Shown in pieces: positions 28,398 through 29,125 of a DNA stretch of 64,000 bases. Below the pieces are notes generated by a model. It made no database searches. It saw nothing but the letters and a program-made list of their open reading frames with translations, and was not told the origin of the DNA. This DNA is from Pseudomonadota bacterium (GTDB lineage Bacteria; Pseudomonadota; Gammaproteobacteria; JAKBBU01): the NCBI GenBank assembly GCA_021808365.1, contig JAKBBU010000002.1:13703-77702 (forward strand), given 5' to 3'. How positions within the stretch are numbered: position 1 is the first letter of the stretch; each line of letters begins with the position of its first letter. Made by a program: the position numbers and the translations under genes.

Positions 28398-28796
28398 ATG
28401 AACCTTCAATTTCTTGAAAATGCCATTATCCGACTTGACGAGGGTCTAGCACGCTATCATCAAGATACCAACGATACACAAATTCGGGATGGACTTATTC
28501 AGCGTTTTGAATTTACTTATGATCTAGGCTACAAAACGCTCAAACGATATCTTGAGTCAGTATCAGCCACACCTTCTGAATACGATAGTATATCTTTTGC
28601 TGACCTTATTCGCAGTGCAAATGAGCAAGGTCTCTTGCTTGGAGATTGGCCAAAATGGCGGCAATATCGTCATCTGCGAAATCAAACCAGCCATACTTAT
28701 GATGAAACAATTGCACTTTCAGTAGTTAAGCATATTCCAGAATTTTTACAAGAAATTGTTTTTTTACAAAATAAATTGCGGGAGAATTTAACGTGA
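28398..28796 (+). CDS. HEPN-domain nucleotidyltransferase substrate-binding protein (HI0074 family; HepT-like toxin)
   Basis: QRFEFTYDLGYKTLKRYLE family signature and an RNQTSHTYDE HEPN R-x4-6-H motif. Confidence 0.8.
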   Translation: MNLQFLENAIIRLDEGLARYHQDTNDTQIRDGLIQRFEFTYDLGYKTLKRYLESVSATPSEYDSISFADLIRSANEQGLLLGDWPKWRQYRHLRNQTSHTYDETIALSVVKHIPEFLQEIVFLQNKLRENLT

Positions 28797-29125
28797 GTTT
28801 TCCCTCGCCTCGTATAGATCTGCATCCAACACATTGGGAAATTGTTAAGCATATTTTAAAAAAGCACGTACCTAACAATGAAGTATGGGCCTTTGGATCA
28901 CGTGTAACCGGACGAGCTAAACCCTATTCTGATTTAGATTTATGTATTATAACTGACAAACCACTTTCTTTATCTACGATCAGTGCATTAAATGAAGCAT
29001 TTTCTGCATCAGATTTACCCTGGAAAGTTGATGTAATTGATTGGTCATTAACAAGTGACTTATTTAGAAAAGTTATTGAGAAAGATAAGATTATATTACA
29101 AACAGGCCCAGACTGTTTACATTAA
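28793..29125 (+). CDS. Minimal nucleotidyltransferase (MNT; MntA-like antitoxin)
   Basis: GSRVTGRAKPYSDLDLCI matches GS-x9-DxD. 4-bp ATGA overlap with the upstream HEPN gene. Confidence 0.8.
   Translation: MSFPSPRIDLHPTHWEIVKHILKKHVPNNEVWAFGSRVTGRAKPYSDLDLCIITDKPLSLSTISALNEAFSASDLPWKVDVIDWSLTSDLFRKVIEKDKIILQTGPDCLH

What the first reader, a model, noticed from the sequence alone, without database searches (positions are those of the whole stretch)
28398..29125. HEPN/MNT (HepT/MntA-like type VII) toxin-antitoxin pair in toxin-first order beside a palindromic element
The HEPN protein carries RNQTSHTYDE (Rx4-6H) and the MNT carries GS-x9-DLD. The genes overlap by 4 bp, which indicates an operon. 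The HEPN gene precedes the MNT gene, which differs from the common mntA-hepT order. The pair is directly downstream of the 290-bp palindrome, consistent with mobile acquisition.
Basis: partly seen in the sequence, partly recalled or inferred. Interest (0 to 1): 0.5.

Follow-up and report, generated by a model that had tools for sequence, protein, structure and literature searches.

The report
Common HI0074/HI0073-type HEPN–MNT gene pair
This is an intact but ordinary member of a very widespread two-gene toxin–antitoxin family (an RNase toxin and the enzyme that switches it off by attaching AMP). Its "unusual" toxin-first gene order is the normal layout for this family, and the neighbouring palindrome is a small transposable element that inserted just in front of the pair.

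Summary
Two overlapping ORFs (HEPN 28398-28796, MNT 28793-29125, GTGA overlap) carry R94-x4-H99-x-Y101 and G35-S36-x10-D47-x-D49; the spacer is x10, not x9. The pair is not HepT(DUF86)/MntA. It belongs to the HI0074/HI0073 family (PF08780/TIGR01987 above cut-offs; PDB 1JOG 1e-19, 1NO5 6e-29; predicted folds TM 0.89 and 0.87). This family includes the tested Legionella pneumophila HEPN–MNT type VII system, and all of that system's functional residues are conserved here. The claimed oddity dissolves: HEPN→MNT order was found in 78 of 80 related genome loci and in 5 of 6 annotated plasmid examples. About a third of the related loci sit as hsdM–HEPN–MNT–hsdS inside type I restriction operons. The 289-bp palindrome (28088-28376) has 32-bp perfect terminal inverted repeats and a 9-bp target-site duplication (GGCACCAAA). 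It is therefore a MITE-like element that inserted into the pair's leader, 21 bp before the ATG, and does not show how the pair arrived. Mobility of the pair itself is supported by different neighbourhoods among its closest homologues, by plasmid carriage, and by low GC3. Verdict: new member of a known kind, low interest.

The parts
28047..28075 (+). Sigma-70-like promoter candidate (TAGACC-17-TATAGT). It lies 3 bp before the target-site duplication. Before the insertion its -10 box would have ended about 24 nt upstream of the HEPN ATG.
   Evidence: 9 of 12 matches. The number of such sites in the region is not above chance, so this is an inference only. Pre-insertion sequence reconstructed.
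28079..28087 (.). Left copy of the 9-bp target-site duplication GGCACCAAA.
   Evidence: identical direct 9-mers abut both ends of the palindrome. None of the 5 other long palindromes or the 37-bp hairpin checked in the window has more than 2 bp.
28088..28376 (.). 289-bp MITE-like palindromic element with 32-bp perfect terminal inverted repeats. Its inner ~105 bp belongs to a short dispersed repeat also present at 36978-37082.
   Evidence: 88.7% identity over 106 bp to 36978-37082, E = 9e-31. No Rfam family matches.
28377..28385 (.). Right copy of the 9-bp target-site duplication GGCACCAAA.
28386..28389 (+). Shine-Dalgarno-like AGGA, 8 nt before the HEPN ATG.
   Evidence: Read from the sequence.
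28398..28796 (+). HEPN gene of the HI0074 / NTase_sub_bind family (132 aa). Predicted RNase toxin with Q35/E38 (Mg site), R94, H99, and Y101 as the AMPylation acceptor.
28780..28784 (+). Shine-Dalgarno-like GGGAG inside the end of the HEPN gene, 8 nt before the MNT GTG. Together with the GTGA overlap it suggests translational coupling.
   Evidence: In many homologous loci the MNT alignment starts at residue 1 with 0-3 nt between the matches.
28793..29125 (+). Short MNT gene of HI0073 type (110 aa). Pol-beta-fold nucleotidyltransferase with G35-S36-x10-D47-x-D49, plus invariant D80 and D83. It has no long C-terminal helix. Predicted AMPylating antitoxin.
29126..29143 (.). 18-bp spacer to the stop codon of the convergent lysS gene (29144-30649, minus strand). 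No repeat element lies on this side of the pair.

Best explanation
This is a stand-alone HI0074/HI0073-family HEPN–MNT module, the 'short-MNT' branch of type VII toxin–antitoxin systems.

Inferred mechanism, by homology to the L. pneumophila lpg2920/lpg2921 system:
- The 132-aa HEPN protein forms a helical-bundle dimer that cleaves RNA. Q35/E38 is equivalent to the Mg2+ site Q44/E47 of the L. pneumophila protein.
- The 110-aa MNT uses ATP/Mg2+ through G35-S36-x10-D47-x-D49 to attach several AMPs to Tyr101, in the R94-x4-H99-x-Y101 loop. This switches the RNase off.
- The antitoxin is an enzyme and not a stoichiometric binder. The toxin gene can therefore come first, with MNT translation coupled through the GTGA overlap. 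This is the standard layout of the family.

The module is horizontally mobile. In this genome it sits alone between a NACHT/HEAT gene and lysS. Later or independently, a 289-bp MITE-like palindrome transposed into its leader, between the likely promoter and the ribosome-binding site, leaving both coding sequences intact.

Shown here: family membership, conserved residues, gene order, the target-site duplication, and context diversity. Inferred: toxicity, AMPylation, expression, and any effect of the MITE.
For: Family membership:
- PF08780 at 3.7e-34 (117.9 bits against a cut-off of 31.8) and TIGR01987 at 90.5 bits (cut-off 55.8).
- PDB 1JOG (HI0074) at 1e-19 and 1NO5 (HI0073) at 6e-29.
- Predicted models have pLDDT 94 and 89. 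They superpose on 1JOG at TM 0.89 and on 1NO5 at TM 0.87/0.95, rmsd 0.8 A, 51% identity.

Link to a tested type VII system:
- L. pneumophila HEPN (8XDJ/8YUF) matches at 5e-9 by single sequence and 1e-11 by profile. Its Q44/E47 and R98/H103/Y105 align with Q35/E38 and R94/H99/Y101 here, and all are invariant in alignment A1.
- MNT-Lpg (8XEH/8XEO) matches at 5e-5, TM 0.75.
- In that system HEPN was toxic and cleaved rRNA, Q44A/E47A abolished activity, MNT added 3-4 AMP to Y105, and mutations in GSX10DXD abolished modification. 1NO5 was its closest structural homologue, Z = 15.1 (PMC11586414).
- Yao et al. 2020 already counted PF08780+PF01909 neighbours carrying both motifs among HepT/MntA-like pairs (PMC7641770).

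Gene order.

Mobility of the pair:
- The nearest homologues (73% and 68% identity) lie beside cas3 of a type I-E CRISPR locus and in an unrelated context.
- 79 plasmid records carry a relative.
- HEPN homologues of 59-68% identity occur in many phyla, whereas the housekeeping LysS next door has no relative above 72%.
- GC3 is 0.22-0.26 for the pair against 0.33-0.43 for its neighbours.

MITE.
Against: - No experiment exists on this pair or on HI0073/HI0074 as a toxin–antitoxin system.
- Identity to the tested L. pneumophila proteins is only about 25%.
- The MNT fails the NCBIfam MntA equivalog cut-off, and NCBI still names the family 'nucleotidyltransferase substrate-binding subunit'.
- Two Pasteurellaceae genomes keep an intact HI0074-type HEPN with no MNT within 4 kb, so the HEPN may not be strongly toxic on its own.
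- PADLOC has no model matching the HEPN.
- The MITE between the putative promoter and the RBS could have silenced the operon. The promoter assignment itself is not above chance.
Confidence: 0.68

Rival explanations
1. The two proteins form a two-subunit nucleotidyltransferase and not a toxin–antitoxin pair. HI0073-type MNT would be the catalytic subunit and HI0074-type HEPN its substrate-binding subunit, and together they would modify a third molecule such as an antibiotic, a nucleotide, a protein or a nucleic acid. This is the original structural-genomics proposal for the family.
For: - Database names still say this: NCBIfam TIGR01987 is 'nucleotidyltransferase substrate-binding subunit', and the RefSeq plasmid annotations agree.
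- Makarova et al. 2009 left antibiotic inactivation open as a possibility (PMC2701414).
- About a third of relatives are embedded in type I R-M operons, which could indicate an accessory enzymatic role.
- Orphan HEPNs without MNT exist.
Against: - The related short-MNT pair of L. pneumophila behaves as a toxin plus AMPylating antitoxin (PMC11586414).
- The acceptor tyrosine and both RNase residue sets are invariant across the family, which a passive substrate-binding subunit would not require.
- Anantharaman et al. 2013 noted that HEPN domains recruited as mere NTase regulatory domains usually lose the RNase residues (PMC3710099).
Confidence: 0.12
2. The module acts mainly as a phage-defence (abortive-infection or R-M-linked) effector and not as an addiction or stress module. 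The biochemistry would be the same, with the RNase unleashed on infection.
For: - hsdM lies directly upstream in 24 of 80 loci, hsdS directly downstream in 24 of 80, and both in 22.
- The closest named homologue abuts cas3 of a type I-E CRISPR-Cas locus.
- A PADLOC type I specificity-subunit model contains an MNT-like N-terminus (1.1e-25), and the candidate defence family PDC-S09 also hits.
- In the window the pair neighbours a NACHT STAND NTPase gene.
Against: - In this window there are no R-M genes.
- The NACHT protein hits no PADLOC model.
- The other neighbour is housekeeping lysS.
- There are no phage-challenge data for any member of the family, and only 2 weak hits occur in phage genomes.
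Confidence: 0.3
3. The pair is a silenced remnant. The MITE insertion separated the operon from its promoter, so the genes are no longer expressed and are on the way to decay.
For: - The 289-bp element with a target-site duplication lies between the only upstream promoter-like site and the RBS.
- The transcript would have to pass through a hairpin of -97 kcal/mol.
Against: - Both ORFs are intact, with every invariant residue preserved.
- Of the 13 contigs on record that encode this exact HEPN protein, the four examined (different samples) are 99.98-100% identical over the pair.
- The hairpin is not followed by a U-run.
- MITEs often carry outward-facing promoters, which was not testable here.
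Confidence: 0.1

Closest known systems
HI0074/HI0073 pair of Haemophilus influenzae (PDB 1JOG, 1NO5; TIGR01987 / PF08780 + PF01909)
   Same: Same family for both proteins. HEPN matches at E = 1e-19, about 35% identity, TM 0.89. MNT matches at E = 6e-29, 51% identity, TM 0.87-0.95. Sizes and motifs are the same, and the genes are adjacent.
   Different: Different organism: an unnamed, poorly sampled gammaproteobacterial MAG lineage. Here a MITE has inserted in the leader. The H. influenzae pair has structures but no published toxin–antitoxin test that I could find in the library.
Legionella pneumophila HEPN–MNT (lpg2920/lpg2921; PDB 8XDJ, 8XEH, 8XEO, 8YUF), type VII TA
   Same: [quoted passage not shown] Q/E Mg site, RX4HXY and GSX10DXD are all conserved, and the genes overlap.
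   Different: Only about 25% identity. The tetramer-based self-inhibition and the 1 MNT: 4 HEPN binding mode described there were not tested for this protein.
HepT/MntA of Shewanella oneidensis (SO_3166/SO_3165) and HEPN/MNT of Aphanizomenon flos-aquae
   Same: Same logic: an RX4HXY HEPN RNase is neutralised by oligo-AMPylation of the motif tyrosine by a GSX10DXD MNT (PMC7641770).
   Different: The HEPN family differs: DUF86/PF01934 there, PF08780 here, and fold TM is only 0.45-0.63. Their MNTs are 139-150 aa with an essential alpha-4 helix; here the MNT is 110 aa without it. Their gene order is mntA→hepT; here it is HEPN→MNT. The NCBIfam MntA cut-off is not reached.
Toxin-first TA modules (hicAB, mqsRA, higBA)
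   Same: The toxin gene lies upstream of the antitoxin gene. An internal promoter-like site lies in the 3' end of the toxin gene (28745-28772), as described for hicAB and mqsRA (PMC8138530).
   Different: The proteins are unrelated. In those systems the antitoxin is a stoichiometric binder or repressor, not an enzyme. The internal promoter here is only a consensus match at chance level.

Membership tests
HI0074/HI0073 family (PF08780 NTase_sub_bind + short PF01909/PF18765 MNT) | HEPN protein scores above the curated cut-offs of PF08780 and TIGR01987 | tested here: met
   117.9 bits against 31.8, and 90.5 bits against 55.8.
HI0074/HI0073 family (PF08780 NTase_sub_bind + short PF01909/PF18765 MNT) | Partner is a ~100-115-aa Pol-beta MNT closest to HI0073 | tested here: met
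   1NO5 at E = 6e-29. Model TM 0.87/0.95, rmsd 0.8 A, 51% identity. Most of the 120 listed homologues are 99-123 aa; the longest is 146 aa.
HI0074/HI0073 family (PF08780 NTase_sub_bind + short PF01909/PF18765 MNT) | Adjacent, co-directional genes in HEPN→MNT order, overlapping or nearly so | tested here: met
   GTGA overlap here. 78 of 80 related loci have the same order on the same strand with 0-97 nt between the matches. Annotated plasmids agree.
Type VII HEPN/MNT toxin–antitoxin (broad sense, Yao et al. 2020 motif definition) | HEPN carries RX4HXY | tested here: met
   R94-NQTS-H99-T-Y101, invariant in A1.
Type VII HEPN/MNT toxin–antitoxin (broad sense, Yao et al. 2020 motif definition) | Neighbouring MNT carries GSX10DXD | tested here: met
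   G35-S36-x10-D47-L-D49, invariant in A2.
Type VII HEPN/MNT toxin–antitoxin (broad sense, Yao et al. 2020 motif definition) | HEPN is growth-inhibitory, and MNT neutralises it by covalent oligo-AMPylation of the motif tyrosine | not testable with these tools
   Known only for homologues (PMC11586414, PMC7641770). Needs toxicity assays and intact-mass spectrometry.
HepT/MntA proper (Shewanella SO_3166/SO_3165 type) | Toxin belongs to DUF86 / PF01934 (HepT) | tested here: not met
   PF08780 is the only Pfam hit. Fold TM to 5YEP/6M6U/7BXO HepT chains is 0.45-0.63.
HepT/MntA proper (Shewanella SO_3166/SO_3165 type) | Antitoxin reaches the NCBIfam NF047752 MntA equivalog cut-off | tested here: not met
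   42.8 bits against a cut-off of 60.
HepT/MntA proper (Shewanella SO_3166/SO_3165 type) | [quoted passage not shown] | tested here: not met
   The protein is 110 aa. The model ends with a 10-residue helix (89-98) and a short strand (100-103). Best fold matches are the short MNTs 1NO5 and 8XEO. The alpha-4 requirement is described in PMC11586414.
HepT/MntA proper (Shewanella SO_3166/SO_3165 type) | Gene order mntA upstream of hepT | tested here: not met
   HEPN is upstream.
L. pneumophila-type (Mg-dependent) HEPN | Gln/Glu pair that coordinates Mg2+ at the dimer cleft (Q44/E47) | tested here: met
   Q35/E38 align with Q44/E47 and are invariant in A1.
L. pneumophila-type (Mg-dependent) HEPN | Dimer–tetramer switch, with MNT binding only to the tetramer | not tested
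   No multimer modelling tool was available.
MITE (non-autonomous transposable element) | Terminal inverted repeats, no coding capacity, small size | tested here: met
   32-bp perfect terminal inverted repeats and 289 bp in length. It contains only short ORFs of 42-56 aa that lie across the hairpin arms.
MITE (non-autonomous transposable element) | Target-site duplication flanking the element | tested here: met
   The 9-bp direct repeat GGCACCAAA lies on both sides. It is absent from the 5 other long palindromes and the 37-bp hairpin checked in the window.
MITE (non-autonomous transposable element) | Multiple copies in the genome, or a cognate IS with the same ends | tested here: inconclusive
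   Within 64 kb there is only one partial related copy (36978-37082, 89% identity). No full second copy was found. Two metagenome scans found nothing. The rest of the genome was not available.

The most novel reading that the evidence does not exclude
The HI0074/HI0073 branch may be a functionally distinct class of type VII modules. In it, toxin-first order is obligatory, the short MNT works without the alpha-4 helix, and the ancestral home is the gap between hsdM and hsdS of type I restriction systems. That would make it an R-M-coupled RNase back-up. Stand-alone copies such as this one would be escaped cassettes. In this copy a MITE in the leader might have rewired expression, for example through a long dsRNA leader processed by RNase III or through an element-borne promoter.
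Probability: 0.15. Interest if true: 0.4.

Novelty: new member of a known kind. Interest (0 to 1): 0.13.

Why it matters
It matters little for discovery. The family is very large: more than 3,000 protein clusters at 90% identity. Structures have existed since 2002-2004, and a relative has been characterised biochemically.

The check is useful in three ways:
1. It corrects a tempting misreading. Toxin-first order is the norm for PF08780-type pairs, although the general literature says MNT is 'almost always' 5' (PMC3710099).
2. It shows that the neighbouring palindrome is an independent MITE insertion with a clean 9-bp duplication, inside the operon leader.
3. It documents that about a third of close relatives lie inside type I R-M operons. 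This may explain why pipelines label the short MNTs as 'S subunit'.

Tried and rejected
- **Empty-site test for recent acquisition.** I searched for LysS relatives and inspected the two closest with long contigs. The nearest is only 71-72% identical and has a different arrangement (prfB-lysS), so no informative empty site exists. 'Strain-specific' could not be tested. The four examined contigs encoding the identical HEPN (of 13 on record, from different samples) carry the same arrangement.
- **More MITE copies.** Up to 3 mismatches within the window gave only the two ends. Sensitive blastn gave one partial relative. Exact scans of JGI metagenome contigs with the terminal-repeat core and with the inner core gave 0 hits.
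- **Rfam on 27500-29300.** Only sub-threshold hits to long plant miRNA hairpins, which are shape artefacts.
- **PADLOC.** No model matches the HEPN or the neighbouring NACHT protein.
- **Composite transposon carrying the pair.** Rejected: only 18 bp separate the MNT stop from the lysS stop, and there is no second element.
- **Promoters.** The promoter scan gives no more sites than shuffled sequence, so promoter statements are inference only.
- **Phage carriage.** Only 2 weak hits at 36-37% identity.
- **Orientation of lpg2920/lpg2921.** It could not be checked, because the paper gives no strand.

Full report
**Observation.** One spans 28398-28796 (+, ATG, 132 aa) and the other 28793-29125 (+, GTG, 110 aa). 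They share the four bases GTGA. A GGGAG lies 8 nt before the second start and an AGGA lies 8 nt before the first. The first protein carries R94-NQTS-H99-T-Y101. A 289-bp palindrome spans 28088-28376, with 32 perfectly complementary terminal bases and an imperfect interior. It folds at -96.8 kcal/mol as DNA, z = -16.7, and ends 21 bp before the ATG.

**What the proteins are.**
- The first protein matches Pfam PF08780 (NTase_sub_bind) at 3.7e-34 and NCBIfam TIGR01987 (HI0074 family) at 90.5 bits against a cut-off of 55.8. It hits no other Pfam family at E ≤ 0.01, and in particular not DUF86/HepT.
- The second protein matches the Pol-beta NTase families PF18765 and PF01909. It reaches only 42.8 bits on the MntA equivalog model, whose cut-off is 60.
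- Against solved structures, the best matches are the Haemophilus influenzae pair itself: HI0074 (1JOG, 1e-19) and HI0073 (1NO5, 6e-29). The Legionella pneumophila 'HEPN toxin' and 'MNT' entries follow (8XDJ at 5e-9, 8XEH at 5e-5).
- AlphaFold models built on alignments of homologues are confident, with pLDDT 94 and 89. The HEPN model superposes on 1JOG at TM 0.89, on the L. pneumophila HEPN at 0.75-0.81, and on Shewanella or Aphanizomenon HepT-type toxins at only 0.45-0.63. The MNT model superposes on 1NO5 at TM 0.87/0.95 (rmsd 0.8 A, 51% identity) and on MNT-Lpg at 0.75.
- The MNT model ends after a 10-residue helix and a short strand. It therefore lacks the long alpha-4 helix of MntA.

**Mechanism by homology.** The L. 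pneumophila pair (lpg2920 HEPN, lpg2921 MNT, overlapping genes) has been characterised (PMC11586414).
- HEPN arrests growth and cleaves 16S and 23S rRNA.
- Its activity depends on Mg2+ bound by Q44/E47 and not on R98/H103.
- The 108-aa MNT, despite lacking alpha-4, adds three or four AMPs to Y105.
- Mutations in GSX10DXD abolish the modification.
- HI0073 is its closest structural relative, Z = 15.1.

In the profile alignment, Q44/E47 and R98/H103/Y105 fall on Q35/E38 and R94/H99/Y101 of the window protein. All five residues are invariant among 18 diverse homologues. G35, S36, D47, D49, D80 and D83 are invariant among 24 MNT homologues. Yao et al. had already included PF08780+PF01909 neighbours carrying both motifs in their census of HepT/MntA-like pairs (PMC7641770). 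I therefore consider a type VII mechanism the most likely, with an RNase toxin neutralised enzymatically by oligo-AMPylation of Tyr101. Toxicity and modification are inferred here, not shown.

**Gene order.**
- I fetched 80 genome loci encoding relatives of the HEPN protein (59-68% identity). They come from Gamma-, Beta- and Alphaproteobacteria, Gemmatimonadota, Acidobacteriota, Thermodesulfobacteriota, Nitrospinaceae, Rhodothermales and Acidimicrobiaceae, among others.
- I then located the MNT gene in each locus by tblastn. In 78 of 80, MNT lies immediately downstream on the same strand, with 0-97 nt between the aligned segments and often starting at the overlap position. The other two have no MNT within 4 kb.
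- RefSeq-annotated plasmids show the same HEPN→MNT order, with overlaps, in Zymomonas, Acetobacter, Legionella adelaidensis, Piscirickettsia and Cetobacterium. The last three are only 33-36% identical to the window protein. A Clostridium tetani plasmid has the opposite order.
- Toxin-first is therefore the family norm in the branch that contains this pair.
[quoted passage not shown] It is not a peculiarity of this locus.
- An enzymatic antitoxin that acts catalytically makes this order unproblematic; that point is inference. An internal promoter-like site at 28745-28772 could add MNT-only transcripts, as in hicAB and mqsRA (PMC8138530). The scan is not above chance, however.

**The palindrome.** Identical 9-mers (GGCACCAAA) lie at 28079-28087 and 28377-28385, directly abutting the element's ends in direct orientation.
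- None of the five other long palindromes in the window, nor the 37-bp hairpin at 27968-28004, has more than a 2-bp flank match.
- Perfect 32-bp terminal inverted repeats, no coding capacity and a 9-bp duplication are the signature of a MITE-like transposition event.
- Its inner ~105 bp is 89% identical to 36978-37082 (E = 9e-31), so part of it belongs to a dispersed repeat.
- Removing the element and one duplicate brings a TAGACC-17-TATAGT site (28047-28075) to about 24 nt from the ATG. That looks like a compact promoter-leader, but it is only a consensus match.
- The element therefore inserted into the leader of a pair that was already there. Nothing comparable lies on the other side, where only 18 bp separate the pair from the convergent lysS stop. 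It is not a vehicle for the pair.
- Two short-read contigs from other samples begin inside its right arm (window 28347), consistent with assembly breaking at the repeat.
- No further full copy could be found, and no Rfam family matches.

**Is the pair mobile?** Independent evidence says yes.
- The nearest HEPN homologues sit in unrelated neighbourhoods. One (73% identity, a Legionellales MAG) lies directly upstream of cas3 of a type I-E CRISPR-Cas locus. Another (68%) lies among unrelated small genes.
- 79 plasmid records carry a relative, often beside IS elements or other TA genes.
- Homologues of about 60-68% identity occur across phyla, while the adjacent housekeeping LysS has no relative above 72% anywhere in the database.
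- The pair's GC3 (0.22-0.26) is below that of its neighbours (0.33-0.43), although its overall GC is only at the 15th percentile of the window.
- A clean empty-site comparison was impossible because no close relative of this organism is available.
- The window is 100% identical to contig DAHWDY010000091.1 of MAG GCA_027326615.1.

**Family context.** In the 80 loci, hsdM lies directly upstream on the same strand in 24, hsdS lies directly downstream in 24, and both are present in 22. An Acetobacter plasmid shows the annotated arrangement methyltransferase–HEPN–MNT–S subunit. This explains two annotation oddities. A PADLOC type I specificity-subunit model matches the MNT at 1e-25 over its first 98 positions. 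JGI also labels many of these short MNTs 'type I restriction enzyme S subunit'. The window has no R-M genes, so here the pair is a stand-alone copy between a 1716-aa NACHT/HEAT protein and lysS.

**Verdict.** The pair is a HEPN/MNT module with the motifs of type VII toxin-antitoxin systems, but of the HI0074/HI0073 family and not HepT/MntA proper. Its gene order is the family standard, and the palindrome is an unrelated MITE-like insertion in its leader. It is a new member of a well-known kind. Interest is low, and what remains lies in the MITE-in-leader arrangement and in the family-wide toxin-first and R-M-embedded pattern.

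Noticed in passing
L057:3914-4390 (Cricetibacter osteomyelitidis) and L082:4001-4366 (Lonepinella sp.): Two Pasteurellaceae genomes carry an HI0074-type HEPN gene but no MNT within 4 kb on either side. In L057 the R-x4-H-x-Y motif is intact and the gene lies between pgl and an Asp/Glu-racemase-like gene; L082 was seen only as a tblastn match. These are orphan 'toxins', which is hard to reconcile with strong toxicity.
   Followed up: partly
L009, L014, L016-L019, L023-L025, L030, L031, L033, L036, L040, L047, L050, L052, L065, L068, L072, L076, L080 (and L090, an Acetobacter plasmid): About a third of close relatives of the pair are inserted between hsdM and hsdS of type I restriction-modification operons (hsdM–HEPN–MNT–hsdS). 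Annotation pipelines consequently mislabel the short MNT as 'type I restriction enzyme S subunit'. A PADLOC specificity-subunit model also carries an MNT-like N-terminus.
   Followed up: partly
L094:1110-1809 (Clostridium tetani plasmid): A PF08780-type pair in the opposite order (MNT first, 14-bp overlap). Both orders therefore exist within the wider family, and the switch may mark a phylogenetic split.
   Followed up: no
window 27656-27802 (-): A 48-aa ORF with a lipoprotein-like signal sequence matches the Entericidin EcnA/B family (PF08085, 2.2e-8, above the cut-off). It is transcribed divergently from the HEPN–MNT pair.
   Followed up: partly
window 22456-27606 (+): A 1716-aa protein with a central NACHT/STAND NTPase domain and C-terminal HEAT repeats lies directly upstream of the pair. 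It has no match to any PADLOC defence model. The TTG start is uncertain, since the MAG annotation calls 1704 aa.
   Followed up: partly
window 62900-63043, 43375-43460, 35718-35848, 44071-44155, 11226-11389: Several other long palindromes lie elsewhere in the window, with perfect or near-perfect arms of 31-48 nt. None has a target-site duplication. Their nature (terminators, REP-like elements) was not examined.
   Followed up: partly
window 36978-37082: A ~105-bp hairpin-containing repeat is 89% identical to the inner part of the MITE (28218-28320). It suggests a family of small nested palindromic repeats in this genome.
   Followed up: partly
window 27968-28004 (+): A 17-bp-arm hairpin followed by a T-run (terminator-like) lies in the 590-bp intergenic region between the entericidin-like gene and the HEPN gene, about 360 bp downstream of the NACHT gene stop.
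   Followed up: no
window 29144-30649 (-) and whole window: The housekeeping LysS has no relative above 72% identity among 5.8 billion protein clusters. The usual prfB-lysS linkage seen in the two nearest relatives examined is replaced here by an Asp/Arg-hydroxylase-family gene. The organism is a poorly sampled gammaproteobacterial lineage (MAG GCA_027326615.1).
   Followed up: partly
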